In this document: positions 10,541-61,587 of the stretch, one piece after another
Position numbering within the stretch: the first letter of the stretch is position 1
Layout: the number at the start of each line of letters is the position of its first letter
UHGV virus genome: UHGV-0248979
Strand: one strand, 5' to 3'
DNA length: 64,000 nt
Source: a virus
The notes under the pieces: generated by a model
The model's database searches: none
Told to the model about the DNA's origin: nothing
The model's input: only the letters and a program-made list of their open reading frames with translations
Made by a program: the position numbers and the translations under genes

Positions 10541-11086
10541 TTAGAGGTGTTTTCCGATAACTTCCGAAACTAATTCGTAAAGGTCATCGTCACTGCACAC
10601 GTCTACGCTAATTCCGATATCGATACTACGACTGCGGAACCCTACTTTGAGCGTTTTACCGAATTCGGTTTGTAGGGCTTTATAGAGTCTATTCTTATCT
10701 TCTTTAAAGAGAGGAACAGGTAGTCTAACAGTGAACTTGTAATGTTCTTTCGAAACAAGTTCGTTAGAATAATTAAAACGTTTAGCCACACGAGTTCCGA
10801 TAATCTGTGTTATCAGCTTAAACATTTCTTCGTCGCTATACGGTGTTGCACCATAACCGATATCAATAGAATTTCTACGGAATCCTGCGCAGAATAATGC
10901 ACCGAATTGCTCACGGAATTCTTTGTGTAGAATATCTTTTTCTACGTCCCACAGCCCGTAACCCAAGTCAATCGTGAATTTGTATTTTTCTTTGTCGACT
11001 AATTCGTTAGTGTAATCAAGTCTAGTGAAGTTCATGGTATATTCTCCTAAAATGGTTTCGTTAAGTGAGAGTAACTGAACTCTCAC
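10541..11086 (-). CDS. hypothetical protein built from two tandem ~85-aa repeats
   Basis: Internal duplication (NELVDKEKYKFT...SIDIGYG vs NELVSKEHYKFT...SIDIGIS); likely true start is the ATG near 11035 (MNFTRLDY) with an AGGAG RBS. Confidence 0.6.
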   Translation of the reverse strand: MRVQLLSLNETILGEYTMNFTRLDYTNELVDKEKYKFTIDLGYGLWDVEKDILHKEFREQFGALFCAGFRRNSIDIGYGATPYSDEEMFKLITQIIGTRVAKRFNYSNELVSKEHYKFTVRLPVPLFKEDKNRLYKALQTEFGKTLKVGFRSRSIDIGISVDVCSDDDLYELVSEVIGKHL

Positions 11087-11106
11087 CTAGGTAATATATA
11101 TCTGAA
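11080..11106 (-). promoter_or_regulatory. conserved phage promoter element, copy 1
   Basis: Minus-strand TTCAGATATATATTACCTAGGTGAGAG followed by an 8-bp-stem hairpin, about 45-70 nt upstream of a start codon. Confidence 0.55.
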
Positions 11107-15276: not shown

Positions 15277-15323
15277 CTAATCCTCCTTTTCGGCTATAAC
15301 TAATGGAGTGAACGTAAATTTCA

Positions 15324-15350
15324 CTCTCTCCTAGGTAATATATATCTGAG
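15324..15350 (-). promoter_or_regulatory. conserved phage promoter element, copy 2
   Basis: Minus-strand CTCAGATATATATTACCTAGGAGAGAG plus a downstream hairpin. Confidence 0.55.
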
Positions 15351-29825: not shown

Positions 29826-29866
29826 AAAAATAAATTCTCCCTCTCTCCAAACGGAGAGAGGGGAAG
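29826..29866 (-). terminator. rho-independent terminator
   Basis: Hairpin ctccctctctcc-aaac-ggagagagggga with an adjacent A/T run. Confidence 0.65.
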
Positions 29867-30649: not shown

Positions 30650-31423
30650 TTAAAAGATAAAATGACCAGTTAATGCTTCTGCCTCAACACCAGGCATCGA
30701 TGGAGGTGCTGAATATGGAAAAGTAAGACGCACGGTTGCGCCCTTTAAATACGCAATACGGTAGTACGTGGTCAAGAGCGCATTCCCGTAAGTACAATCG
30801 TTATAGAAGAAACCTTCGGTGGCAAACGTCTTTTCGTTGATTTTCGAATAGACTAAGATACCTTCAACTTTACCATCTTTACGGCAGCACAAACCTTCTG
30901 CTGCACCAATCGCTAACAATTCCAGGCAGCGCGTATCCAAGCTGACATTAACCACCTTAGTGATCGTAAACGTTTCTTCTAACGTTAGAGATTCAATATC
31001 ATCTACATCAGGCAAATCGGTGCGAACTTCAGGTTTTTCAGTAAACGTCAGCTCATAATCGATGAACGACGGCTGCATACGCAAGAACGCCATTAACTGA
31101 TCGCGACGTTTTAGGTCATTGGCAGGGTATGTGACATCAAACACCTCCACATCTAACAAACGTTTGAGTTGTGCGAAATTAATTTTCTTCTTCGCAAACA
31201 CAACGATTGCCGACATGTAGAAAATCTTACCATCGGCGCGACCGGAGAAGACACATTGCAGCTGATTCGTGTTCGAAAGAATGATAAAGGTCGGATCTTC
31301 AGATTCGCGAATGATGTCTTTTTCCATCAACCCTTTTCGTAGACGGGTTAGCGAAACTATTCTACCACCCACACCAATTGCTAAATGGTCATTACGATAA
31401 TCGTCAATATCCACTATACGCAT
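30650..31423 (-). CDS. hypothetical protein
   Basis: 257-aa ORF. Confidence 0.55.
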   Translation of the reverse strand: MRIVDIDDYRNDHLAIGVGGRIVSLTRLRKGLMEKDIIRESEDPTFIILSNTNQLQCVFSGRADGKIFYMSAIVVFAKKKINFAQLKRLLDVEVFDVTYPANDLKRRDQLMAFLRMQPSFIDYELTFTEKPEVRTDLPDVDDIESLTLEETFTITKVVNVSLDTRCLELLAIGAAEGLCCRKDGKVEGILVYSKINEKTFATEGFFYNDCTYGNALLTTYYRIAYLKGATVRLTFPYSAPPSMPGVEAEALTGHFIF

Positions 31424-32238
31424 TAGAGCACTCCCAGTAATTCAGTCACCGTTTTCCGAGTAGCGCCAGACGCACCCATATAGCGACCGACCTCAATACT
31501 ACGCCACTTAAAACCGTAATAAATTTCTCGGGTGAGCAGGGTGTCTGCATTTGACAACACGACACTGTTGCCACGTTCCACCTGCTGCTGTAGTAACTTG
31601 GCCAATTCACGATGATCCGTTTGTGAGAATTCTTTACGGTGGTATTGCGCATGTTTCGCAGTATCCGATAACGGAATATACGGAGGATCAGCATAAATCA
31701 CAGCATCCTCAGGTGTCCGTGCTAATACAGAACGAAAGTCCTCACAAACAATTTCCAGATAATCAACTTCCGCACAACGTTTAGCCCAATCCCGAATTTC
31801 TTCTAATGGATAATAAACCCCATTCGGGTAACGTCCAAACGGAACATTGAACCCACCGCTACTGTTATAGCGACACATACCGTTATAACCGTGACGCATT
31901 AAGTATAAAAACATCGCAGCACGCTCAACTTCTGACATCGATTTACCGCTATTAAACAGCTCACGACGCTCCATATACTTTACAGTGGCATTACCGTCTA
32001 AGAACAACGGTTGCGACGCAGCGATCAGTTCTTCAGGCTGTTCACGCGCAACACAAAGTAAGCGTATCAAATCAGGGTTAGAATCCGATAAAATATACCG
32101 GCTGTAATTCGTATTTAGGAAAACAGACCCTGCACCCACAAACGGTTCTACAAAGGTTGTACGTTTAGGCAAGACCTTTTGTAATTCCCCTAAAACACGT
32201 GTTTTCCCACCCATCCACTTAATAATTGGTTTCCGCAT
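31423..32238 (-). CDS. dam: DNA adenine methyltransferase (Dam-like, GATC-type N6-adenine MTase)
   Basis: Near-identical blocks to enterobacterial Dam as recalled (VEPFVGAGSVFLNT, YGYNGMCRYN, catalytic DPPY in IYADPPYIP). Confidence 0.9.
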   Translation of the reverse strand: MRKPIIKWMGGKTRVLGELQKVLPKRTTFVEPFVGAGSVFLNTNYSRYILSDSNPDLIRLLCVAREQPEELIAASQPLFLDGNATVKYMERRELFNSGKSMSEVERAAMFLYLMRHGYNGMCRYNSSGGFNVPFGRYPNGVYYPLEEIRDWAKRCAEVDYLEIVCEDFRSVLARTPEDAVIYADPPYIPLSDTAKHAQYHRKEFSQTDHRELAKLLQQQVERGNSVVLSNADTLLTREIYYGFKWRSIEVGRYMGASGATRKTVTELLGVL

Positions 32239-33217
32239 TATATCCGCCTTGTAACGATGATACTTCGTCGCCTAACACCAGCTCGACACGATTTTTCCGA
32301 CGCTCCCAACTGACGACGTCATCGTCGCGCACTAAAACAAATTCGTACTCGTAGGACCGAAATTTAAATAATTCGACGACCAGGTGTCTAAATGCAGGGT
32401 TGTTATTGAAACACCCTATCTCCAATGGTGCCGCTGTTGTCGATGCAATCTGCAGAGCACGGTATAACAAAGTCCGTCCGATACCACGCCCCCGATGTGT
32501 TTCACTTACCGCAATGGCTTTTAATTCACACTCGTTAAGATTACGCAATTTAACTTGCACCACGCCCACAACATCGTTGCCGTCCATCCAAACGTAGGTG
32601 TGGTGGTTGACGTGACGTACTAACTCCACCAACGTTTCGACTTGTGGCATGATTTGTCGTGAGCGGCCCACAGGGTCAGCGTTGATGTTTTCAACTACGC
32701 TCGCGCCTAAAAGCAACATAAGCTGTTCTCGTTGTGCAGCGGTTAACTCTTTATAAAAATCACCAGAGATGTTCTTCACGTTCGTTGGTAGAGCGATATC
32801 CAATAACGAGCGTGTACCTAAACGGTATGTGGTGTGGGTGTGTCTAAATCCTAAGTCATTAAGCTCAGAGATTTCTTCTACACCACTGGCGATTCGATTA
32901 AGATACGTAAAACCGGTGTAGTCGAGTACCAGTAGTAGGTTCAGTTTGTTCAAACAACCTGGTACAATTTCATGCATATACAAGCAGTGTAACGTTGGAT
33001 CGCCGTAAATGTGTTTTGTGATGATAAACCCTTGAATTGTTTTTCCTTTTTGTAAAGAGAACGTATTCAGTTCACTATTGCACAACGCCTCACGAATCAC
33101 CGCACCGTTAGGGCCAGATAAACAAGCCTGAAGTTGAGGGTTGCGAATATCTCTACGTGCTAACCGACCTACTGTTAAATCCGTGGCGGTACGTTCTATA
33201 GTCTTCCTAAAAGCCAT
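32219..33217 (-). CDS. two-domain protein with C-terminal GNAT acetyltransferase domain
   Basis: 332 aa; C-terminal HRGRGIGRTLL acetyl-CoA-binding motif; N-terminal ~200 aa unrecognised. Confidence 0.65.
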   Translation of the reverse strand: MAFRKTIERTATDLTVGRLARRDIRNPQLQACLSGPNGAVIREALCNSELNTFSLQKGKTIQGFIITKHIYGDPTLHCLYMHEIVPGCLNKLNLLLVLDYTGFTYLNRIASGVEEISELNDLGFRHTHTTYRLGTRSLLDIALPTNVKNISGDFYKELTAAQREQLMLLLGASVVENINADPVGRSRQIMPQVETLVELVRHVNHHTYVWMDGNDVVGVVQVKLRNLNECELKAIAVSETHRGRGIGRTLLYRALQIASTTAAPLEIGCFNNNPAFRHLVVELFKFRSYEYEFVLVRDDDVVSWERRKNRVELVLGDEVSSLQGGYNAETNY

Positions 33218-33267
33218 GTTAATTACTCCTTAAAAGGTCGTCTCAAAACAATACGCTAAAGCTGTAA

Positions 33268-33300
33268 AAACAAAAAAGAAAGGGGAACCGAAGTTCCCCA
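33268..33300 (-). terminator. rho-independent terminator
   Basis: Hairpin ggggaac-cgaa-gttcccc with a T-run on the minus strand. Confidence 0.6.
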
Positions 33301-33311
33301 ATTATTAAACA

Positions 33312-33968
33312 TCACGCAAAAGGGGCAGAGCTTGTGAAAGCAAGATTGGGTGTCATGCCAGCTTTCCCTAATTTTTCATACAGGTAATTGAAAAATCTGA
33401 GATGGACCTCGTAGTGGCCAGTCGCTACTCGCTGGCCGTAAACTTCTACCAAGTCAGGCGAAAACTTAATATGGCAGTTTTGTCTAGAGAACAAAGGTTG
33501 TTGCACCCCACCCTTAATTAAGATGCGATACTTTTTACCATCGTCTGTTACGGCGTGAAGAATATTTGTATTGAAATGGAAATAGATAGAAGGGTTAAAA
33601 CTCAACCAGTCGGCAGCATTGACTAGTAGGTCAGCTAACTTAACACCGATTTTGTCAAGTTCAGGCCCTTCAAACTTATGCATTAACCGCAGGAGAATTT
33701 CAGTAATAACCGTACCTGTAAGTAACTTGTCTCTATTAAGGCCAGGCGCAACCGCCAAAATGTCGCCATTATAAGTGCAGACAAGTGTGAATAAGTTGAA
33801 AGGCTGGTCTTGATAAAAATCGAAAACCAGGTCAGTATACGGATTAAAAGTTAAGAATTTCACCCCAATTATTTCATTAACGCAGGGTAAAAGTTCAACC
33901 TTCGCAGCCGGTTGAACTTCGTTGGCTTTAGTCTCGTTCTTTACAGTTTCTTTAGTTTTCGGTGCCAT
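33312..33968 (-). CDS. hypothetical protein
   Basis: 218-aa ORF. Confidence 0.55.
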   Translation of the reverse strand: MAPKTKETVKNETKANEVQPAAKVELLPCVNEIIGVKFLTFNPYTDLVFDFYQDQPFNLFTLVCTYNGDILAVAPGLNRDKLLTGTVITEILLRLMHKFEGPELDKIGVKLADLLVNAADWLSFNPSIYFHFNTNILHAVTDDGKKYRILIKGGVQQPLFSRQNCHIKFSPDLVEVYGQRVATGHYEVHLRFFNYLYEKLGKAGMTPNLAFTSSAPFA

Positions 33969-33989
33969 GATATTACTCCTTCAGGTTGA

Positions 33990-34349
33990 TTAGTGTGTTA
34001 CAGTGTTAGTGATAAAACGCACATTCTTCTTGGTACGTTTAATGGACGTGTTTGCAACGTAGTCCAATGCGGACTCTACGTGAACGGTTACTGAGCAACG
34101 ACCCTTAACGGAATTAAAACTAATCTGATATTTCAGACGAATCGCATCAGCAACTTTCATCATAATCGGCAAGCTTAAACGTTCTACGCGTTCGTTCTTA
34201 ATAGATGAGATAACGGGTTGTGAAACTTTCGCAAGCTGGGCAAGCTCACGCTGGGTAATGTCTTTCGTGGTCAAATGACAAACTACGTAAGACAAATGAA
34301 GGCCAAATTTACGTTTTGCCAGAACGATGGAATTGTGATTGTAAGCCAC
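33990..34349 (-). CDS. helix-turn-helix (XRE-like) transcriptional regulator
   Basis: 119 aa; HTH segment ITQRELAQLAKVSQPVISSIKN; GTG start with AAAGGAG RBS; first gene after promoter copy 3. Confidence 0.65.
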   Translation of the reverse strand: MAYNHNSIVLAKRKFGLHLSYVVCHLTTKDITQRELAQLAKVSQPVISSIKNERVERLSLPIMMKVADAIRLKYQISFNSVKGRCSVTVHVESALDYVANTSIKRTKKNVRFITNTVTH

Positions 34350-34397
34350 GGTAATACTCCTTTAGGTTAACAAGTCGGTGTAAAGAGTTAATTGTAA

Positions 34398-34424
34398 CTC
34401 TCACCTAAGTAATATATATCTGAG
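34398..34424 (-). promoter_or_regulatory. conserved phage promoter element, copy 3
   Basis: Minus-strand CTCAGATATATATTACTTAGGTGAGAG plus a downstream hairpin. Confidence 0.55.
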
Positions 34425-34468
34425 AAAAAATAAAATATAGGTACCACCGTTGGGTGGTACCTAAGCGG

Positions 34469-35092
34469 TTAGTTTGCTAAAATGTACGTAACAATCTCTG
34501 CGGCTTTCAAACGGTAATCGTCATTCTGCGTTACCGGTAATAACGCGTGAAGACAACCGCCTTCTGTTAAGATGTGGTGCGCGAATCGATAACGGTCACG
34601 TAAACCATCCCAACATTGGTTGTCCTTTAGATACTTAACTGTAAGTACCTCATCATCCCAATTCTTACCTTGTTCTTCTACACGTTTCTTAAATCGTGTT
34701 AACGCTGTTGGGTAATCAACATCTGTCCAAACATAAAGGTCAGGAGTGTGGAAATGACGAGTTAGCTTACGTTGGAAAACCACATCCTTACCATCTGTCC
34801 CCTGATAAACGATCGTTGAAGGACAGAAGCGATCGAAAATAACGACATCGTACTCGTCAACAACATGGTCCAACGTGTGAAGGAAATCATCACACATCGC
34901 TTCAGCAATTTTTGTATTCGAAGCAGACTGTACAACCAAACTGCGTGCACGAATGCCCGCCTCGGTTTCAGATGTCGGATGGTTCCGAACGCAAACTTTT
35001 AATCCGGCGGATTCCAACATCGCTTTTACCATTTTACACAACGTTGATTTCCCAGAAAAGTCAGGACCATCAATAGACACTGTCTTAAGCAT
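34469..35092 (-). CDS. tmk: thymidylate (dTMP) kinase-like nucleoside monophosphate kinase
   Basis: P-loop DGPDFSGKST near the N-terminus; DRF...YQG motif at the expected spacing; 207 aa. Confidence 0.75.
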   Translation of the reverse strand: MLKTVSIDGPDFSGKSTLCKMVKAMLESAGLKVCVRNHPTSETEAGIRARSLVVQSASNTKIAEAMCDDFLHTLDHVVDEYDVVIFDRFCPSTIVYQGTDGKDVVFQRKLTRHFHTPDLYVWTDVDYPTALTRFKKRVEEQGKNWDDEVLTVKYLKDNQCWDGLRDRYRFAHHILTEGGCLHALLPVTQNDDYRLKAAEIVTYILAN

Positions 35093-35115
35093 TATAGTTT
35101 TACCTTTTTACGCAC

Positions 35116-35158
35116 GTTAAGTGAAACTTCTCACAATGAGGGTAACAGTTGTAATAAT
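35116..35158 (-). promoter_or_regulatory. degenerate promoter-like element upstream of the kinase gene
   Basis: Minus-strand TTATTAC...GTGAGAAGTTTCACTTAAC shares TATTAC, the GTGAGA hairpin and CACTTAAC with the conserved element. Confidence 0.3.
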
Positions 35159-35206
35159 TTACAATAAAAAAGAAACCCGCCCCTACCGTTAAGTAGGGGT
35201 AAGGTT

Positions 35207-35812
35207 TTATTGGTGGTCAACAATCGGACCACTCCACACTTCTGACGTTTCCGGTGAGGTGAGGTTAGCAGCCTGTGCAGAAGTTACGCACAGCAAGACT
35301 AACCCTTGTTTAGCAAGATAATGTTGCATTCTTGCTGCCTGCACGGCGGTGTCCACAATAACGAGCTCAGCGTCACGTAGAAGCGTTAGAGCTGCTTGCC
35401 CCTCTTGCGGTGTGGTTAAAGCATCACTGTCGTCCAGAATGCGTTTAAGGCGGTTATACGCCAACCCAGTTACATTACTCCGACCTGCACGAAGATCAAC
35501 GACCATATTGCTGTATTCCCCCACCACTTGTTGCGTCGAGTTTGGATAAAATCGAAACGCAGCACGGCGACGTTTACGTCGCACCTCAGAAATCGCGCGT
35601 TGTAAAACCAGCAATACGTATTTCGGAGCCGCTTCGCTATTCGGTCGACGCATCTTGGCTAAACGTGCAGCTAAATCCAAAATTTTCGTTAAGGGATAGC
35701 GGTGTTTAAACCCGTCACGTTCGATAGTAACGCCACGTTTAGGCAACTTGCCTGTTTTGTTGATATACGATACTGTAATCAATAGTAATGAATCGAGAAT
35801 CATCTCTGACAT
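35207..35812 (-). CDS. hypothetical protein
   Basis: 201-aa ORF. Confidence 0.55.
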   Translation of the reverse strand: MSEMILDSLLLITVSYINKTGKLPKRGVTIERDGFKHRYPLTKILDLAARLAKMRRPNSEAAPKYVLLVLQRAISEVRRKRRRAAFRFYPNSTQQVVGEYSNMVVDLRAGRSNVTGLAYNRLKRILDDSDALTTPQEGQAALTLLRDAELVIVDTAVQAARMQHYLAKQGLVLLCVTSAQAANLTSPETSEVWSGPIVDHQ

Positions 35813-35826
35813 TACAAGGCCCTCTC

Positions 35827-36198
35827 TTAGAACCCCTCAAGAACAGCTTTCACAAATTCGTAAACCGTGCGTCGGTGTTCTTCAAGCGGATAAACAAACT
35901 TAGAATAATCGTTGTTCCAGACAACCGGATAGAGGTCGCCATCACAACTTAAATAGCTCTTACGAACCATGTAATAATCTAAACCTACACGGAAGTTTAA
36001 CGACAGACTACCGTGTTTACTACAAACGTGTAGCTGGAGCGATTTCACACCGTCGTGAGTTGGCGATTCAATCGTTTCCGCATACAATACATCCGAACAC
36101 TGTTCTATAGCGCTAACGACATCTCTGAGGTTGTTGTCTGCATCGATGGTCGCTTTTCGGAGAGCGTCGGTGTATTGCTGAAGTTCTCGATAGAACAT
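35827..36198 (-). CDS. hypothetical protein
   Basis: 123-aa ORF with AGGAG RBS. Confidence 0.55.
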   Translation of the reverse strand: MFYRELQQYTDALRKATIDADNNLRDVVSAIEQCSDVLYAETIESPTHDGVKSLQLHVCSKHGSLSLNFRVGLDYYMVRKSYLSCDGDLYPVVWNNDYSKFVYPLEEHRRTVYEFVKAVLEGF

Positions 36199-36737
36199 CC
36201 TGCTAATCTCCTGTCTCTACCGTAAGGTAGGGGAAATGCTTTGTGTTCATATTCTGCAACGACATACGCAGGATAGAACAAAAGGTATTTATAGAACGTA
36301 GACAACGTAACGTTTTTCTGGGTGGCTAAAAAGTAATTAAGATCGGGGTTGTCTGGAAAAGCAAAATGCAATCCTGTGTATACCTGACCTTTATACTCCC
36401 CATTAAAGGGTGTGACTGCACATCGTGGGTGTGTCGGCTCGACGTGTAACCAACGACTTCTTACGTGATAAACGCCACGGACTGTCGCGTTTCGTGTTTT
36501 ACCCAAATAACGACAACGAATATTCTTTTCCCACGCCGCACGTTGAGTGGGTGAACCCAGAGAAACAAACCGCGTTAAAGCTTCAGGTGTAAAGTAATCA
36601 AAAATGCCGGTCGGTAAACACCAACACGCTTTATCGATTCGTACCACTCTCCAACCAGGACGAAAACCCACAGCGTAACGCTCTACACCAAAAGTATATC
36701 TAGACCCGTCATGAAACGGTACTAATCTTGCAGCCAT
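36105..36737 (-). CDS. hypothetical protein (3' end overlaps the next gene)
   Basis: 210-aa ORF; 94-nt overlap with 35827..36198. Confidence 0.5.
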   Translation of the reverse strand: MAARLVPFHDGSRYTFGVERYAVGFRPGWRVVRIDKACWCLPTGIFDYFTPEALTRFVSLGSPTQRAAWEKNIRCRYLGKTRNATVRGVYHVRSRWLHVEPTHPRCAVTPFNGEYKGQVYTGLHFAFPDNPDLNYFLATQKNVTLSTFYKYLLFYPAYVVAEYEHKAFPLPYGRDRRLAGCSIENFSNTPTLSEKRPSMQTTTSEMSLAL

Positions 36738-36738
36738 T

Positions 36739-37206
36739 TTAGATTTCCTTTATCATTTCCCTGCATTCGGTACGGAATCCCATCTTCTCATACAAGGAGA
36801 TAGCTTTAACGTTGTTGTCTAACACATCCAGACTCATCCAACCACAGCCTTTGGACTTTCCGTATTCACGGACTTTGTCCATAAGCGCACGGCCTACCCC
36901 TTGAGAGCGTGCTTCAGGAACCACATAGTAATTCCCGATGTAAACAAACGTGTCCTTTGAGCAAGAACCCATTGAGAACGTCATAAATCCCAGAAGCTGT
37001 TCGTTGTCGTCCACCGCACACGCACAGAGATAATCTTGAGGCCAAATCTCTTCTAAACGTTCGATGGGGTTGAACGTGTCACGTCCGGTTAACTGACTAA
37101 TACGCACTTTCTCTTCTGCGAACAGCATGTTGTGCAGTTTGAGTACCTGGTCGCCGTATAACTTTCCGTATTTACTGTCGGGTTTGAGAATAATAGTAAT
37201 ACGCAT
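36739..37206 (-). CDS. GNAT family N-acetyltransferase
   Basis: 155 aa; motif VVPEARSQGVGRALM. Confidence 0.75.
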   Translation of the reverse strand: MRITIILKPDSKYGKLYGDQVLKLHNMLFAEEKVRISQLTGRDTFNPIERLEEIWPQDYLCACAVDDNEQLLGFMTFSMGSCSKDTFVYIGNYYVVPEARSQGVGRALMDKVREYGKSKGCGWMSLDVLDNNVKAISLYEKMGFRTECREMIKEI

Positions 37207-38339
37207 TATTTAACCTCAATCAGCGACAACCTGCACCATTCCAGTAAGCCCTCCGCAACACGCACCAACGAAGTAGTAAAGGCATCTTCTAAACGCAGCG
37301 CGTTTTTATACCGGACAGTAGCATCGCGTAACTCACGGCCATCTAACGATTTCAGCTCTTTTTTCATTCGCTGAACTTCATCGTAAATACCGGTATAACC
37401 AACACTACGTCGTTTCGTACCACGCTGACGTAACGCTCGGATAATGTTTCTAACAGCGTCTAGAGCTGAACCGATTTCGTGCAAGTTCAGAGATTTGATT
37501 GTGTGGCCAAAATCACCATCGCGGGCAATCGCCCACTCAATCTTACCGTTGTCGTGTTCAACGACCACCACGTTACCAGGCCACGGATACGCTTTCACCG
37601 TTTTAAACGGATCAATAATACCGAACAGTCCTGCGCTTCGTTTAATCGCCCAGTTCGTCGACCGACCCACTTTCTCCAAACCGCTCTCGGTAACTTTCTT
37701 GCTCTTACCGATAATAGTGCGTGTTTTAACGGTATACTCGTTGACCATCGCATCCATTGCGCTCAGGTTCTTACTGAATTCAATACATGCTTTTACGTTA
37801 GGCTTGTCTTCTAAACAAACTTTGGTTGTCCAACTTCCCGTGTCGCAGTCGACAGGCTTTAACGTGTCCTTGATGCCGAGTAAACTTAGCTTTGCGGTTA
37901 ACTTTTGCAGTTTGCGTTCTAAAGTCGTCGCTTTAGACGTCGCTTCTTTTAATTCCTTTATGACTTCTTTACCGGCGGCTTCCGCGAAGTCGACAAAACG
38001 TAACGCAAGTTGCTTAGAATGCTTACCTGCGAAGTTTCCAGTTGCCTTAGCCCCCGCTACCGCTGCCTTTCCAGCAACACGACTAGCCCCTTTAACCGCT
38101 CTGCCGGTCGCGCGTGCGACCGCTTTACCTACTCCTGCGTAAGGCTCAGTGTCCGCAACAAATTGCGCGCGTTCCATCATCGCTGCAGACTCTAGCGCAA
38201 CCTGCACATCGTCTAAAACCCACCGTTTTCGGATAGCGACAATCGCCGGATAATTGTCTTTAACATTAAGCGACTCTAACGCGACCAATCGATCGTAGTC
38301 ATCGCAAAGGACTTCTAAATCGGAATCTAATGTTGACAT
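37206..38339 (-). CDS. hypothetical protein
   Basis: 377 aa with an Ala/Lys/Gly-rich segment. Confidence 0.55.
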   Translation of the reverse strand: MSTLDSDLEVLCDDYDRLVALESLNVKDNYPAIVAIRKRWVLDDVQVALESAAMMERAQFVADTEPYAGVGKAVARATGRAVKGASRVAGKAAVAGAKATGNFAGKHSKQLALRFVDFAEAAGKEVIKELKEATSKATTLERKLQKLTAKLSLLGIKDTLKPVDCDTGSWTTKVCLEDKPNVKACIEFSKNLSAMDAMVNEYTVKTRTIIGKSKKVTESGLEKVGRSTNWAIKRSAGLFGIIDPFKTVKAYPWPGNVVVVEHDNGKIEWAIARDGDFGHTIKSLNLHEIGSALDAVRNIIRALRQRGTKRRSVGYTGIYDEVQRMKKELKSLDGRELRDATVRYKNALRLEDAFTTSLVRVAEGLLEWCRLSLIEVK

Positions 38340-38389
38340 CCTTTACCCCATTTTAAGCTAAAGCGGGGAGAAGCCCGCCCTGACTAACT

Positions 38390-38938
38390 TCATAATAAGC
38401 GTAGGTCTTCTAACCACTTAGATGCATCCGTAACATGATAATAGCAAGGGATGTTCAGTGACTGCGCATAGCGGACACCCATTGCTGTACCACCTTTTGG
38501 ATTTCCCTTTTTATCGTGTTCAGCGTAATAATAGACCGCATCTACGGGGTTGTCTAAAGCGTCACCGGATACAATATTTAAGTTTCGTCCATGCAAAGCC
38601 CAAGCTATATCCGATAGCTTATCGGGATTAGGGTGAAGCGATGCCACAATCCCACGATAACGAATGTCTTGAGGGATAACGAGAAAGTCAACATTCGGAT
38701 GTAACTTACGTAACCACAACTTACGATCGTCGGGCAAATAGCAAATATGTGGACCTGGTTCAGTACGCGCTAACATAAACTGTAATTGGTCTGGCCCTTT
38801 ATAACAACCACCCGAACGGGTTTCGATTTTGTGCTGTTTATTACGAAGAATTTTGAACCCGCGTTGCAACACGTCCAACATTTCTTGCATCGTGTCTTCG
38901 GGAGTTTCTCGAGAACCAATAATAGCGATTTTATACAT
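38390..38938 (-). CDS. SLOG/DprA/LOG-like Rossmann-fold protein (putative nucleotide-processing enzyme)
   Basis: N-terminal KIAIIGSRETP followed by SGGCYKGPD, resembling the GSR + glycine-loop motifs of DprA/LOG-type domains; weak by-eye call. Confidence 0.4.
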   Translation of the reverse strand: MYKIAIIGSRETPEDTMQEMLDVLQRGFKILRNKQHKIETRSGGCYKGPDQLQFMLARTEPGPHICYLPDDRKLWLRKLHPNVDFLVIPQDIRYRGIVASLHPNPDKLSDIAWALHGRNLNIVSGDALDNPVDAVYYYAEHDKKGNPKGGTAMGVRYAQSLNIPCYYHVTDASKWLEDLRLL

Positions 38939-38967
38939 TTGTCACCTCCATACTGAAGTTGTGAAGT

Positions 38968-39003
38968 GAAAAAAAGAAAGCAGGAGAGAACCCCGAAAAG
39001 GTT
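38968..39003 (-). terminator. rho-independent terminator
   Basis: Hairpin ggagagaacc-ccgaaaa-ggttctctcc with an adjacent T-run. Confidence 0.65.
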
Positions 39004-39023
39004 CTCTCCTATCGTTGACGATA

Positions 39024-39686
39024 TCACTCTTCTAAACTACTTAAAACGGCAGTTTCGAGTAACGCTTTACCCATCCAGACATCCAACTCACCATCTAAGT
39101 CAGCTAAAGGGCGCTTATCCAGTTCGTTGTTGTAGTTAAGTCCGTCAAGGGTTTTATTCGTAATAATTTGCCCAATATGAAGCGGTAGAATAAAACGATT
39201 TCGTGCGCTATAAATAAACGAATCACATTCGTAAACTACCGCATAGCGCTCAAGATCGTCATCATACTCAACATGGCACTGCGAGCCAGTGTCCCATGCA
39301 CGTGACAAAACCATACCACGATCTTGACACATCTTCTCTACTGACGCTTTCGCGGACTTTGCCCATTTATCGTAATTTTTCGGTTGGCCGTTTTCGAAAT
39401 CGAACCAATCCAGATACTTACCGGGAATCTCAAGAAAGTCGTTTAGTTGAAGTTTTGTGTAAGATACCATCACCGCGTCATTAATATCGTTGCGGTTAGT
39501 TAACTTTACCCGATACCGACCTTCCGGTGTGGGTGCACCCATTAAAGAAACATCCACTTTCTCAGCCGAAAGCTTTTTACGTACACTGCCGTTATTACAG
39601 TAGCTGACGAGGTTGAGTAAGTTCTGTCTATGACCAACTTCAAAATCAATTACAAAAGACATACAAACTCCGCGGGGGTTAATCAC
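39024..39686 (-). CDS. hypothetical protein
   Basis: 220-aa ORF. Confidence 0.55.
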   Translation of the reverse strand: MINPRGVCMSFVIDFEVGHRQNLLNLVSYCNNGSVRKKLSAEKVDVSLMGAPTPEGRYRVKLTNRNDINDAVMVSYTKLQLNDFLEIPGKYLDWFDFENGQPKNYDKWAKSAKASVEKMCQDRGMVLSRAWDTGSQCHVEYDDDLERYAVVYECDSFIYSARNRFILPLHIGQIITNKTLDGLNYNNELDKRPLADLDGELDVWMGKALLETAVLSSLEE

Positions 39687-40078
39687 TAATACCCGTATAA
39701 CGGGTAGCGTGCGGTGATCTCATCACCGACATAAAAAGTTAAACGTTGGATTTTAATACTTTTATTTACATAGGGTACAGTTTCTAACGTTACCTTTACA
39801 CCGGCAGAACAGCTTCCAGGATCAACAAACTGATATGTACGTCGTTTGATATTTACCAAATAGTAGCCACCCGCTGGGCACAGTTCGGTTTTGCCATAAT
39901 TTACCGTGGCAAACTCATCGTTTTGAACCGCAACGACTGGTTGGTCGGTAGATTTAAATACGACAGGTTTATCCCCTGGCACCGTAGGTTCAAAACGACT
40001 AATATCGTGCGGTTTAAATTCCGCTATCGCGGAAAATGAAAGTAACGTTAGAAAAAGGGTAATAACAGATCTTTTCAT
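39686..40078 (-). CDS. secreted (periplasmic) protein with signal peptide
   Basis: 130 aa; N-terminal signal sequence MKRSVITLFLTLLSFSAIA; four Cys in the mature part. Confidence 0.6.
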   Translation of the reverse strand: MKRSVITLFLTLLSFSAIAEFKPHDISRFEPTVPGDKPVVFKSTDQPVVAVQNDEFATVNYGKTELCPAGGYYLVNIKRRTYQFVDPGSCSAGVKVTLETVPYVNKSIKIQRLTFYVGDEITARYPLYGY

Positions 40079-40554
40079 CAGTATACCTCATCAAGATGTT
40101 CGCGTAGCCATGGTTTCGACTCTAAGCGCGGAATCATGTTCCGCGTGTTCGGCGAAAACCATAACGCTTCGCGATATTTCTTTTTGAAACGTTCCCAGTG
40201 ATACGAGAATGGCTTGGGTGTAAAACCGCGCTCTTTTAGCACCTCCTCCCAAACCAAGTCTTTAATAAAATCATCCACTAAAATTAATACCAGCGCTTTC
40301 CATTTACTACGTCGGTAGTGCCGTGTAAAAGATTTGCGGAGATCAGAAAAGTCCTCTCGTCGCCGAGAACGTACTACTGGAGTTGCCTTCTCTTTAAATT
40401 GCGAACAAGGATTATGTTCTATTATCGTTACAGGAACACCCCGAACACGACCTGTACGCAAGTCAATCTCGTGAGCGGGGATAACTTCAACGCAACGTAA
40501 CACTTTTGCTTTATTGCCTTCCAAGCACCGCGTCTCATATTCGACACGAATCAT
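40078..40554 (-). CDS. hypothetical basic protein
   Basis: 158 aa, Arg/Lys-rich. Confidence 0.55.
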   Translation of the reverse strand: MIRVEYETRCLEGNKAKVLRCVEVIPAHEIDLRTGRVRGVPVTIIEHNPCSQFKEKATPVVRSRRREDFSDLRKSFTRHYRRSKWKALVLILVDDFIKDLVWEEVLKERGFTPKPFSYHWERFKKKYREALWFSPNTRNMIPRLESKPWLREHLDEVY

Positions 40555-40573
40555 TTTGGGCTCTCAACCATTT

Positions 40574-41050
40574 CTAATAAATCTTATCCGCAACAGAGAG
40601 AAAGATGGGGGTGTTTTCAATAAAATCCACCAAATATCCTTCTTCTGGCGGGGTGTATGACGAATCAATGTTACTGTTCGTCATACGAAAATACCGACGG
40701 GAGTCACTGGCAATAAACCATCGGTCTATTTGGAAGCCTTTTTTGGAAAAGAAACACAGCCCGTCGATGTTTGAGGGATGAACACGACACATCACCATTT
40801 GACGATCTGAATTGAGTTGAACGTATTTCAGTAAAAAGGAACCTACACCACTGCGACGAGAACCCTCGGCCACCACCAGATAAATAAGATTCCCCGGTTC
40901 CCAGATTGCAACCCCATGTGTAATATCGTCTTCAACGGCCAAAGTGATTCTAACCGGCGTTTCACGAATCGAATTTAAGTCTTTCACATATTCGCACAAT
41001 TCAGGAAATTTAGCAGAGATTTTGTCTTCGGTAATATTTAACGGTTGCAT
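40574..41050 (-). CDS. GNAT family N-acetyltransferase
   Basis: 158 aa; motif VVAEGSRRSGVGSFLL. Confidence 0.7.
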   Translation of the reverse strand: MQPLNITEDKISAKFPELCEYVKDLNSIRETPVRITLAVEDDITHGVAIWEPGNLIYLVVAEGSRRSGVGSFLLKYVQLNSDRQMVMCRVHPSNIDGLCFFSKKGFQIDRWFIASDSRRYFRMTNSNIDSSYTPPEEGYLVDFIENTPIFLSVADKIY

Positions 41051-41712: not shown

Positions 41713-41754
41713 TCCTTCTTTTAAGTCTCACACTATGTTTAAAAATTGTAAAAA

Positions 41755-41792
41755 TAAAAAGAAGTAACCTCTACCCGAAGGTAGAGGTTAAT
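41755..41792 (-). terminator. rho-independent terminator
   Basis: Hairpin aacctctacc-cgaa-ggtagaggtt with a T-run on the minus strand. Confidence 0.65.
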
Positions 41793-61514: not shown

Positions 61515-61559
61515 ATATAACTCCTAATTAGGTATTCGATAAATGAGTATTACGTAAAC

Positions 61560-61587
61560 TCTCACCTAGGTAATATATATCTGAAAT
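61560..61587 (-). promoter_or_regulatory. conserved phage promoter element, copy 4
   Basis: Minus-strand TTCAGATATATATTACCTAGGTGAGAG, about 50 nt upstream of the 47-aa sORF. Confidence 0.55.

What the first reader, a model, noticed from the sequence alone, without database searches (positions are those of the whole stretch)
31423..41050. Cluster of an orphan Dam methylase and three GNAT acetyltransferases
The Dam-like methylase has no adjacent restriction enzyme and is overlapped by a GNAT fusion protein whose N-terminal ~200 aa are unrecognised. Two more stand-alone GNATs lie within 9 kb. Multiple GNATs in a phage early region could modify host proteins, aminoacyl-tRNAs or antibiotics; the orphan methylase could protect against GATC-targeting restriction.
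Basis: partly seen in the sequence, partly recalled or inferred. Interest (0 to 1): 0.4.

Follow-up and report, generated by a model that had tools for sequence, protein, structure and literature searches.

The report
Jumbo-phage Dam methylase and three acetyltransferases
The methylase and the three acetyltransferase genes are real, but they are unrelated genes in a gene block shared with Salmonella phage SPN3US and its relatives, already annotated there and not a joint functional module.

Summary
There is a 271-aa Dam-family methylase, a 332-aa GNAT protein whose stop overlaps the Dam start by 20 nt, and two stand-alone GNATs of 155 and 158 aa.

The whole 28.8-44 kb stretch is collinear, gene for gene, with SPN3US gp84-gp112 and with Erwinia jumbo phages. 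These are nucleus-forming Chimalliviridae.

- **Dam:** it keeps the catalytic DPPY motif and 7 of 8 E. coli Dam GATC-contact residues. Neither neighbour shows any restriction-enzyme signal.
- **"Unrecognised" N-terminus:** it is a second, degenerate GNAT fold, so the protein is a tandem GNAT of the kind seen in VipF and MshD.
- **GNAT2:** it is the positional orthologue of Erwinia-phage enzymes shown to acetylate spermidine. The SPN3US orthologue was inactive in the same assay.
- **GNAT3:** it is 61% identical to SPN3US gp88, crystal structure 7DQG, substrate unknown.

The three GNATs share no detectable sequence similarity. They lie in separate terminator-bounded units. Erskinevirus phages keep the Dam but lack the tandem GNAT.

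Only the HTH gene carries an early-type promoter motif.

One point of real interest remains. GATC is depleted 1.6- to 6-fold across this lineage even though every member keeps a conserved Dam.

The parts
31423..32238 (-). Solitary Dam-family (D12 class) N6-adenine DNA methyltransferase, 271 aa, predicted GATC-specific. Orthologue of SPN3US gp105.
   Evidence: PF02086, E 3e-57. TIGR00571, 254.6 bits against a cut-off of 114.85. E. coli Dam 2G1P, E 2e-66, full length, 45% identity. K9, Y119, N120, R124, P134, R137, Y138 and DPPY are conserved, with L122 changed to M (residue roles from PMC4417163). 67% identical to SPN3US gp105. The best PADLOC model is 'orphan methyltransferase'.
32219..33217 (-). 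Tandem-GNAT protein, 332 aa. Orthologue of SPN3US gp104.
   Evidence: AlphaFold2 model with pLDDT 79.8 and pTM 0.72 shows two consecutive GNAT topologies. The best Foldseek PDB matches over about 300 columns are all tandem GNATs: VipF, clavulanate ORF14, MAB_4324 and MshD, E 1e-12 to 1e-9. 31% identical to SPN3US gp104. The family has only 7 clusters at E<1e-30 among 1.84 billion representatives.
32819..33178 (-). N-terminal degenerate GNAT fold (aa 14-133). It has no R/Q-x-x-G-x-G/A loop. It carries the family's most conserved motifs, GDPTLxC.Y and LDYTGF.
   Evidence: Secondary-structure order b1-a1-a2-b2-b3-b4-a3-b5-a4-b6. Invariant columns G72, L76, C78, L98, D99, T101, G102 and F124. A motif search finds only one P-loop in the protein, in the C-terminal domain.
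32330..32779 (-). C-terminal catalytic GNAT domain (aa 147-296) with the acetyl-CoA P-loop RGRGIG at aa 242-247 (nt 32477-32494).
   Evidence: PF00583, E 2.5e-12, over aa 198-278. Model and motif. A profile search aligns this domain to the C-terminal GNAT of VipF 6WQB.
32219..32238 (-). 20-nt overlap between the tandem-GNAT stop and the Dam start, suggesting translational coupling.
   Evidence: Read from the sequence. An 8-nt overlap occurs in the 43%-identical relative L008/L009. SPN3US has a 30-nt gap and Caitlin an 8-nt gap, so the overlap is specific to this clade.
30650..31423 (-). 257-aa protein of unknown function whose start shares a base with the Dam stop (TAATG). Orthologue of SPN3US gp106. 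Possibly a P-loop-less paralogue of the tandem GNAT.
   Evidence: phrog_9941. 26% identical to gp106. hhalign against the tandem-GNAT family gives probability 64%, E 6.5e-5, over 174 collinear columns. BFVD lists uncharacterised 256-278-aa proteins of Kwan and phiEaH2 among matches to the tandem-GNAT model. AlphaFold2 failed with pLDDT 27. No Pfam, PADLOC or PDB match.
36739..37206 (-). GNAT2, 155 aa. Positional orthologue of the Erwinia-phage spermidine N-acetyltransferases and of SPN3US gp95.
   Evidence: PF00583, E 2.6e-19. phrog_3810, E 1.6e-44. 45% identical to Caitlin YP_009292176, 49.7% to phiEaH2 YP_007237670 and 48% to SPN3US YP_009153389. Activity data come from PMC9992855. The best PDB matches are diamine acetyltransferase 2 and polyamine acetyltransferases.
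37206..38339 (-). phiKZ-type internal head protein, 377 aa. Orthologue of SPN3US gp94. Its stop shares a base with the GNAT2 start.
   Evidence: PF12699, E 7e-7. phrog_2497, E 1.9e-73. 59% identical to gp94. gp94 was detected by mass spectrometry in SPN3US heads (PMC10052503).
40574..41050 (-). GNAT3, 158 aa. Orthologue of SPN3US gp88, whose crystal structure is PDB 7DQG. Substrate unknown.
   Evidence: 7DQG, E 1e-62. 61% identical to gp88. phrog_7861, E 1.3e-69. Present in 62 phage records, including Cronobacter CR5 and Erwinia Phobos. P-loop RRSGVG.
34397..34423 (-). Early-type promoter-like element, one of four invariant 27-nt copies in the window, 48 nt upstream of the HTH gene 33990-34349.
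   Evidence: TCAGATATATATTACYTAGGWGAGAGT occurs 4 times against 0 expected, always on the minus strand and always in intergenic DNA. It is the only stretch of the region with DNA-level similarity to SPN3US-like phages. It fits the AT-rich virion-RNA-polymerase early-promoter description in PMC7598289.
33282..33299 (-). Terminator-like hairpin plus T-run between the HTH/218-aa unit and the tandem-GNAT/Dam unit. Similar sites lie at 41765-41790, 38981-39011, 35180-35199, 34438-34463 and 29839-29862.
   Evidence: sequences. These sites place the three GNATs in three different units.

Best explanation
The region is an ordinary, vertically inherited segment of a roughly 225-kb relative of Salmonella phage SPN3US (Seoulvirus, family Chimalliviridae, nucleus-forming jumbo phages). 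It holds four independent enzymes rather than one system.

1. **Solitary Dam orthologue.** It uses AdoMet to methylate N6 of adenine in GATC. The fold, motifs and DNA-contact residues are shown here. Activity and target are inferred. Its most likely substrate is the phage's own replicating DNA. The host Dam would presumably not reach that DNA inside the phage nucleus, so the few remaining GATC sites are kept methylated against GATC-directed nucleases (inferred).

2. **Tandem-GNAT acetyltransferase**, translationally coupled to the Dam. The C-terminal GNAT binds acetyl-CoA and would carry out catalysis. The N-terminal GNAT-fold domain has lost the cofactor loop and most likely forms the acceptor-binding half, as in MshD (inferred). 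The protein evolves fast, at 31% identity to SPN3US against 67% for the Dam. It is missing from Erskinevirus. This suits an accessory factor facing the host.

3. **GNAT2**, co-transcribed with an internal head protein gene. It belongs to the phage spermidine N-acetyltransferase group and most likely acetylates a polyamine. This rests on orthology to tested enzymes. One tested orthologue was inactive.

4. **GNAT3**, a conserved core GNAT of the wider SPN3US, CR5 and Phobos group. An orthologue's structure is solved, but the substrate is unknown.
For: - **Synteny and identity of every gene with SPN3US gp84-gp112:**. The same order is seen in Machinavirus, Wellingtonvirus and metagenomic contigs.
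- **Dam:**
- **Tandem GNAT:**. Narrow distribution.
- **GNAT2:**
- **GNAT3:**
- **Independence of the genes:** no pairwise similarity between the GNATs, terminators between them, and phiEaH2 with a Dam but no tandem GNAT at the syntenic position or elsewhere.
- **Nucleus-forming relatives:** SPN3US chimallin gp244 (PMC9365700), and Seoulvirus placed in Chimalliviridae.
- **Existing annotation:** exact copies of all four proteins are on 220-227-kb contigs; for the Dam and GNAT2, exact or near-identical copies (same 90%-identity cluster) carry the names 'DNA adenine methylase' and 'GNAT family N-acetyltransferase'.
Against: - No biochemical or methylome data exist for this phage or, in the papers I could read, for SPN3US.
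- GATC is depleted, at 0.63 in the window and 0.17-0.44 in relatives. That is unexpected if self-methylation alone solved the problem.
- The SPN3US orthologue of GNAT2, which is as close to the window protein as the active ones, produced no N-acetylspermidine.
- The P-loop of the tandem GNAT is partly degenerate (Q-x-x-R-x-G) in the Machinavirus and Wellingtonvirus orthologues.
- The tandem-GNAT to Dam to gp106-like order is kept in every genome that has the tandem GNAT. A functional link is therefore not excluded.
- The window covers only 64 kb of about 225 kb, so a restriction enzyme elsewhere in the genome cannot be ruled out.
Confidence: 0.7

Rival explanations
1. First reader's reading. 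The Dam and the three GNATs form an early host-takeover and anti-defence cluster. The Dam would protect against GATC-cutting restriction enzymes. The GNATs would modify host proteins, aminoacyl-tRNAs or antibiotics.
For: - An early-type promoter lies inside the region.
- The jumbo-phage literature predicts Rac-like protein-acetylating roles for GNATs (PMC7824862).
- The Dam of SPN3US-like phages has been proposed as anti-restriction (PMC6614189).
- The tandem GNAT evolves fast and its closest solved fold is the Legionella acetyltransferase effector VipF.
Against: - The early motif precedes only the HTH gene, and a terminator-like hairpin follows that unit.
- GNAT2 is coupled to a head protein gene.
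- The GNATs are unrelated to each other and lie in different units.
- GNAT2 orthologues acetylate spermidine.
- No PADLOC match for any GNAT.
- The tandem GNAT is dispensable in Erskinevirus.
Confidence: 0.12
2. The Dam is kept for something other than evading classical restriction. One option is protection of phage DNA, replicated in a compartment that would exclude the host Dam, from MutH-type cleavage at unmethylated GATC. Other options are control of packaging or transcription, or methylation of host DNA. GATC depletion and the methylase would then be two answers to the same pressure.
For: - The Dam is among the most conserved proteins of the block, at 67% against a typical 40-60%.
- GATC is the second most depleted 4-bp palindrome here and is depleted 2- to 6-fold in every relative sampled.
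- The relatives form a nucleus.
- From memory, not from papers I read here: GATC counter-selection in enterobacterial phages has been attributed to the methyl-directed mismatch repair system (McClelland 1985; Deschavanne and Radman 1991).
Against: - The remaining GATC sites are not clustered, so there is no sign of a regulatory GATC array in these 64 kb.
- There are no localisation or methylome data.
- Depletion is also what restriction pressure alone would produce.
Confidence: 0.3
3. The tandem GNAT, the Dam and the gp106-like paralogue(s) act together on DNA. An example would be a Mom-like acyl modification of adenine at or near GATC.
For: - The order tandem GNAT, Dam, gp106-like is kept in all genomes that have the tandem GNAT.
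- Start and stop codons overlap on both sides of the Dam.
- There is possible paralogy between the two flanking genes.
- GNAT-superfamily DNA modifiers (Mom) exist in jumbo phages (PMC7824862).
Against: - The whole 15-kb block is collinear, so adjacency carries little extra weight.
- phiEaH2 has the Dam and the gp106/107-like genes without the tandem GNAT.
- No Mom family hit in Pfam. No Mom structure among the top 50 Foldseek matches, which are small-molecule or protein tandem GNATs.
Confidence: 0.05
4. GNAT2 is not a spermidine acetyltransferase in this phage. Like SPN3US gp95 it would be inactive on spermidine and act on another amine or on a protein. Given its coupling to an internal head protein gene, that protein could be a head or ejected protein.
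For: - SPN3US YP_009153389 gave no N-acetylspermidine, and it is as close to the window protein (48%) as the active enzymes (45-50%).
- The SSAT-type catalytic Glu92 aligns with Gly91 here (alignment).
- The gene shares a start/stop base with the internal head protein gene in every relative.
- No NCBIfam polyamine-acetyltransferase equivalog reaches its cut-off.
Against: - Two of the three tested orthologues were active.
- The Glu is also absent from the active Caitlin enzyme, so its absence is not diagnostic.
- A negative result from heterologous expression may reflect poor expression.
- gp95 is not mentioned among virion proteins in the SPN3US head proteome papers I could search.
Confidence: 0.4

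Closest known systems
Salmonella phage SPN3US gp88, gp94-gp95 and gp104-gp105 (Seoulvirus), and the same block in Erwinia Machinavirus and Wellingtonvirus phages
   Same: Gene-for-gene collinearity over gp84-gp112. The same three GNAT families, the same Dam, the same pairing of internal head protein with GNAT, and the same early-promoter element upstream of the HTH gene.
   Different: Protein identities are only 22-80%. There is no DNA-level similarity outside the promoter. SPN3US gp93, gp99, gp102 and gp107 have no counterpart here. The tandem GNAT and the Dam overlap here but are separated by 30 nt in SPN3US.
E. coli Dam (PDB 2G1P) and other solitary GATC methyltransferases
   Same: Full-length alignment at 45% identity. 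DPPY and FxGxG motifs. K9, Y119, N120, R124, P134, R137 and Y138 are conserved. No cognate endonuclease is adjacent.
   Different: L122 is Met. The score is below the NCBIfam equivalog cut-off for the enterobacterial Dam (259 against 441 bits). It is encoded by a virulent jumbo phage whose genome is depleted in GATC.
Tandem-GNAT proteins: Legionella VipF (6WQB, 7WX5), mycothiol synthase MshD (1OZP, 2C27), clavulanate ORF14 (2WPX), MAB_4324 (7Q3A)
   Same: Two GNAT folds in one chain of about 300 aa. The cofactor P-loop and the best sequence match are in the C-terminal fold.
   Different: 9-15% identity and TM-score only 0.4-0.57, so the domain packing differs. No equivalog match (MshD 19.6 against 163 bits). 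The N-domain carries its own conserved motifs, GDPTLxC.Y and LDYTGF. The family is confined to SPN3US-like phages.
Phage spermidine N-acetyltransferases of Erwinia phages Caitlin (YP_009292176) and phiEaH2 (YP_007237670), Li et al. 2023, PMC9992855
   Same: GNAT2 is their full-length positional orthologue at 45-50% identity and lies directly after the internal head protein gene.
   Different: Activity is untested here. The equally close SPN3US orthologue was inactive. The genomic context lacks the early promoter and is coupled to a head gene. It therefore gives no support to the early expression that the authors proposed as a condition for their anti-defence idea.
phiKMV/LUZ19 Rac (GNAT acetylating the RNA polymerase alpha subunit) and phage Mu Mom (GNAT-superfamily DNA acyltransferase)
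   Same: They are phage-encoded GNAT-superfamily enzymes used against the host or for DNA modification. They are the models usually invoked for jumbo-phage GNATs.
   Different: No sequence or fold match to either was seen in Pfam or in the top Foldseek lists. These are functional analogies only and were not tested directly.

Membership tests
Dam family (D12 class) N6-adenine DNA methyltransferase | Profile match above the curated thresholds (Pfam PF02086, NCBIfam TIGR00571) | tested here: met
   194.7 bits against 22. 254.6 bits against 114.85.
Dam family (D12 class) N6-adenine DNA methyltransferase | Catalytic motif IV (DPPY) and AdoMet motif I (FxGxG) | tested here: met
   D184-P-P-Y187 and F33-V-G-A-G align to E. 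coli D181-Y184 and F35-G37.
Dam family (D12 class) N6-adenine DNA methyltransferase | GATC-recognition residues of E. coli Dam (K9, Y119, N120, L122, R124, P134, Y138) | tested here: met
   All are conserved except L122, which is Met. Residue roles are from PMC4417163.
Dam family (D12 class) N6-adenine DNA methyltransferase | 6mA at GATC in DNA | not testable with these tools
   Needs DpnI/MboI digestion or SMRT/Nanopore methylation calls.
Enterobacterial Dam equivalog (NCBIfam NF008152) | Score above the equivalog cut-off | tested here: not met
   259.1 bits against 441. It is a family member, not the host-type orthologue.
Solitary ('orphan') methyltransferase | No cognate restriction endonuclease adjacent | tested here: inconclusive
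   The upstream neighbour is a GNAT. The downstream 257-aa protein has no Pfam, PADLOC or PDB hit, and its structure prediction failed. The best PADLOC model for the methylase is 'oMTase'. Only 64 kb of about 225 kb was seen.
GNAT superfamily (three proteins) | Pfam GNAT profile above the gathering score | tested here: met
   Tandem GNAT 47.5 against 20.7, and GNAT2 70.1 against 20.7. GNAT3 fails Pfam (22.9 against 27) but matches PDB 7DQG at E 1e-62 and phrog_7861 at E 1e-69.
GNAT superfamily (three proteins) | Acetyl-CoA pyrophosphate loop Q/R-x-x-G-x-G/A | tested here: met
   RGRGIG, RSQGVG and RRSGVG, one per protein.
Tandem-GNAT architecture (MshD/VipF type) | Two GNAT folds in one polypeptide | tested here: met
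   AlphaFold2 topology. The top Foldseek matches are all tandem GNATs over about 300 columns.
Tandem-GNAT architecture (MshD/VipF type) | Orthology to a characterised member (for example the MshD equivalog TIGR03448) | tested here: not met
   19.6 bits against 163.1. Identity to the PDB matches is 9-15%.
Phage spermidine N-acetyltransferase (Li et al. 2023) | Orthology to the tested Erwinia-phage enzymes | tested here: met
   45% identity to Caitlin and 49.7% to phiEaH2, full length, same genomic position.
Phage spermidine N-acetyltransferase (Li et al. 2023) | N-acetylspermidine formation | not testable with these tools
   Two orthologues were active and the SPN3US orthologue inactive. The NCBIfam PaiA-type equivalog is not reached (26 against 250 bits).
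Mom-type DNA acyltransferase | Sequence or fold match to Mom | tested here: not met
   No such Pfam hit. None in the top 50 Foldseek PDB matches.
Early (virion RNA polymerase-transcribed) operon of a chimallivirus | Conserved AT-rich early promoter motif directly upstream | tested here: not met
   The motif is present only upstream of the HTH gene (34397-34423). None lies upstream of the tandem-GNAT/Dam, GNAT2 or GNAT3 units. Read-through past the 33282-33299 hairpin is not excluded.

The most novel reading that the evidence does not exclude
In this lineage of nucleus-forming jumbo phages the strongly conserved Dam coexists with 2- to 6-fold GATC depletion. It is also flanked by proteins of tandem-GNAT fold. 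The least ordinary reading that my evidence does not exclude is this: the Dam works inside the phage nucleus as a self-marking or regulatory methylase, for example for mismatch-repair evasion or for control of packaging or transcription, rather than as a classical anti-restriction enzyme. The flanking tandem-GNAT-fold proteins would then be functional partners.
Probability: 0.12. Interest if true: 0.55.

Novelty: new member of a known kind. Interest (0 to 1): 0.25.

Why it matters
The practical value is modest.

- It tidies annotation for a widespread but uncurated roughly 225-kb enterobacterial jumbo phage.
- It shows that the 'GNAT with an unknown N-terminus' (SPN3US gp104 family) is a tandem GNAT restricted to this phage lineage.
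- It links GNAT2 to an experimentally tested polyamine-acetylating group. The genomic context does not support the early expression that was proposed for those enzymes.

The only open biological question worth an experiment is why nucleus-forming phages keep a highly conserved Dam while purging GATC from their genomes.

Tried and rejected
- **AlphaFold2 of the 257-aa protein downstream of the Dam** (16-sequence alignment) failed with pLDDT 27. Profile searches of that family against Pfam and the PDB found nothing. Its possible tandem-GNAT relationship rests only on hhalign at 64% probability and on BFVD matches that I mapped to genes by organism and length alone.
- **The 218-aa family upstream of the tandem GNAT** shows no profile similarity to the tandem GNAT or to the 257-aa family.
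- **A candidate shared promoter, TTTTTACA-N17-19-TGAGAC,** upstream of the GNAT3 unit and the tandem-GNAT unit recurs too rarely to count.
- **The bare 8-mer TATATTAC** is not enriched on its own, at 4 against 2.4 expected. Only the 27-nt form is significant.
- **A sigma-70 promoter scan** is at chance level.
- **No tRNA or Rfam family** in the window.
- **GATC sites** are not clustered.
- **PADLOC** has no model for any GNAT or other neighbour.
- **Literature:** no paper found for PDB 7DQG. The SPN3US infection proteome paper (PMC6384053) is not held, so gene timing could not be checked. Searching for TATATTAC in papers was uninformative. Nothing was found on Dam in nucleus-forming phages.
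- **Ideas rejected:** a recent GNAT duplication, a DpnII-type restriction partner (no PF04556 hit), and Mom-like chemistry.

Full report
**1. Observation**

All genes between 28.8 and 44 kb are on the minus strand.

| ORF | Coordinates | Size | Main evidence |
|---|---|---|---|
| Dam | 31423-32238 | 271 aa | PF02086, E 3e-57; TIGR00571, 254.6 bits against a 114.85 cut-off |
| GNAT 'fusion' | 32219-33217 | 332 aa | PF00583 over aa 198-278 only |
| GNAT2 | 36739-37206 | 155 aa | PF00583, E 2.6e-19 |
| GNAT3 | 40574-41050 | 158 aa | Below the Pfam cut-off; phrog_7861, E 1e-69; PDB 7DQG, E 1e-62 |

The 332-aa ORF ends 20 nt inside the Dam ORF. Each GNAT has one R-x-x-G-x-G acetyl-CoA loop.

**2. 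What genome this is**

Megablast of 10.5 kb against 50,697 phage records finds no relative except a 70-90-nt intergenic stretch.

At protein level the picture is clear. The block is collinear, gene for gene, with Salmonella phage SPN3US gp84-gp112 at 22-80% identity. It is also collinear with Erwinia phages of Machinavirus and Wellingtonvirus and with metagenomic contigs.

Seoulvirus belongs to Chimalliviridae. SPN3US encodes a chimallin and forms the nuclear-shell lattice (PMC9365700).

Exact copies of all four proteins occur on 220-227-kb contigs. Many come from isolate assemblies labelled Salmonella, E. coli or Shigella. For the Dam and GNAT2, exact or near-identical copies in the same 90%-identity cluster already carry the names 'DNA adenine methylase' and 'GNAT family N-acetyltransferase'.

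**3. The methylase**

It aligns end to end with E. coli Dam (2G1P, E 2e-66, 45% identity). It keeps DPPY, the AdoMet motif and the residues that read GATC in E. coli Dam: K9, Y119, N120, R124, P134, R137 and Y138. Only L122 is changed, to Met. The residue roles are from PMC4417163.

It is 67% identical to SPN3US gp105, which makes it one of the best-conserved proteins of the block.

The upstream neighbour is a GNAT. The downstream neighbour is a 257-aa protein with no Pfam, PADLOC or PDB match. The best PADLOC model for the methylase is 'orphan methyltransferase'. 'Orphan' is therefore supported as far as these tools reach. Two caveats apply: the downstream protein is unknown, and only 64 kb of the genome is in view.

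**4. The 'fusion'**

An AlphaFold2 model built from eight family members has pLDDT 79.8 and pTM 0.72. It shows two complete GNAT topologies, at aa 14-133 and aa 147-296.

Foldseek against the PDB returns tandem GNATs as the best matches over about 300 columns. These are Legionella VipF, clavulanate ORF14, MAB_4324 and MshD, at E 1e-12 to 1e-9. A sequence profile independently puts VipF first, aligning C-terminal GNAT to C-terminal GNAT.

The N-terminal fold has no P-loop. It does hold the family's most invariant residues, in the motifs GDPTLxC.Y and LDYTGF.

From established knowledge of MshD, one GNAT fold supplies catalysis and the other builds the acceptor site. That is the mechanism I infer here.

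The family is tiny, with seven 50%-identity clusters at E<1e-30 among 1.84 billion representatives. It is also fast-evolving, at 31% identity to SPN3US.

**5. GNAT2**

It follows the internal head protein gene with a shared start/stop base, here and in every relative.

Li et al. (PMC9992855) expressed its orthologues in E. coli lacking speG:
- Caitlin YP_009292176 and phiEaH2 YP_007237670 produced N-acetylspermidine.
- SPN3US YP_009153389 did not.

The window protein is 45%, 49.7% and 48% identical to these three respectively. Its best PDB matches are diamine and polyamine acetyltransferases.

A polyamine substrate is therefore the best-supported guess, at roughly even odds.

The authors' idea that such enzymes blunt CRISPR and restriction was conditional on early expression. 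The context here offers no support for early expression. There is no early motif, and the gene is coupled to a head gene in a unit that starts after a terminator.

**6. GNAT3**

It is 61% identical to SPN3US gp88, whose sequence matches the PDB entry 7DQG 'putative acetyltransferase'. It is the most widely conserved of the three, found in 62 phage records that include CR5 and Phobos. I found no paper describing its substrate.

**7. Module or not**

- The three GNATs share no detectable similarity with one another.
- Hairpin-plus-T-run sites at 41765-41790, 38981-39011, 35180-35199, 34438-34463, 33282-33299 and 29839-29862 split the region into at least five units. The GNATs fall in three of them.
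- A 27-nt invariant element, TCAGATATATATTACYTAGGWGAGAGT, occurs four times in the window against none expected. Every copy lies just after a terminator. It fits the published description of virion-RNA-polymerase early promoters (PMC7598289).
- Within the finding, that element precedes only the HTH gene.
- Erskinevirus phiEaH2 retains the Dam, the gp106/107-like genes, GNAT2 and GNAT3, but has no tandem GNAT at the syntenic site or elsewhere.

The cluster is therefore inherited synteny, not a functional unit.

**8. GATC depletion, the one unexpected result**

GATC is the second most depleted 4-bp palindrome in the window, with 169 observed against 270 expected (ratio 0.63). The ratio is 0.49 in the syntenic block. 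It is 0.17-0.44 in every relative sampled, all of which carry the Dam. The remaining sites are not clustered.

GATC counter-selection in enterobacterial phages is an old observation that has been attributed to mismatch repair. I state this from memory, not from a paper read here.

In a phage that replicates in a nucleus which would presumably exclude the host Dam, a phage Dam that keeps the residual sites methylated would make sense. This is inference only.

**9. Possible paralogy around the Dam**

The 257-aa family downstream of the Dam aligns collinearly with the tandem-GNAT family by hhalign, at 64% probability and E 6.5e-5.

BFVD lists uncharacterised 256-278-aa proteins of Kwan and phiEaH2 among matches to the tandem-GNAT model. 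One of them fits phiEaH2 gp030 by length.

The direct structure prediction failed, so this stays a lead.

**10. Verdict**

The genes are new members of known, already annotated families in a known phage group. I set interest at 0.25. The main residual question is the role of a conserved Dam in GATC-poor, nucleus-forming phages.

Noticed in passing
window 11079-11105, 15323-15349, 34397-34423, 61558-61584 (all minus strand): A 27-nt invariant element, TCAGATATATATTACYTAGGWGAGAGT, occurs four times against none expected. Each copy is intergenic and lies just 3' of a hairpin plus T-run. The copy at 34.4 kb is the only DNA in the 10.5-kb query conserved with SPN3US-like phages. It is probably the early promoter for the virion RNA polymerase in this lineage.
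   Followed up: partly
whole window; L001, L002, L004-L009: GATC is depleted. Observed/expected is 0.63 in the window, 0.49 at 28.8-44 kb and 0.17-0.44 in relatives, even though all of these genomes encode a conserved Dam. The remaining sites are not clustered.
   Followed up: partly
window 36105-36737 and 35827-36198 (minus strand): Two conserved ORFs (phrog_9255 and phrog_8535) overlap by 94 nt. Similar long overlaps of 40-94 nt exist between their orthologues in SPN3US (gp96/gp97), Caitlin (gp104/gp105) and contig L007.
   Followed up: no
window 30650-31423 (minus strand); L001 13828-15453; L010 7891-9524: The genes just downstream of the Dam (gp106/gp107-like, 1-3 copies per genome) may be P-loop-less paralogues of the tandem GNAT. 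Support is hhalign at 64% probability and BFVD fold matches. The structure prediction failed.
   Followed up: partly
L010 (Erwinia phage phiEaH2, 16000-29000): Erskinevirus keeps the Dam, the gp106/107-like genes, GNAT2 and GNAT3. It lacks both the tandem GNAT and the 218-aa gene that precede the Dam elsewhere.
   Followed up: yes
whole window (protein look-ups): Exact copies of the window's proteins occur on 25-124 contigs of up to 227 kb. Many come from isolate assemblies labelled Salmonella enterica, E. coli and Shigella. No phage record in the August 2025 collection shows DNA similarity beyond a 70-90-nt intergenic stretch. This suggests a widespread jumbo phage that is not yet curated, possibly in a carrier state or present as a culture contaminant.
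   Followed up: no
window 37206-38339 and 36739-37206 (minus strand): The internal head protein gene and GNAT2 share a start/stop base (TAATG), and the pairing is conserved in every relative examined. Whether GNAT2 is packaged into the head is unknown.
   Followed up: partly
window 33240-33270 and 41725-41754 (minus strand): The regions upstream of the tandem-GNAT unit and the GNAT3 unit share TTTTTACA-N17-19-TGAGAC just after their terminators. There are too few copies in the window to call this a promoter class.
   Followed up: partly
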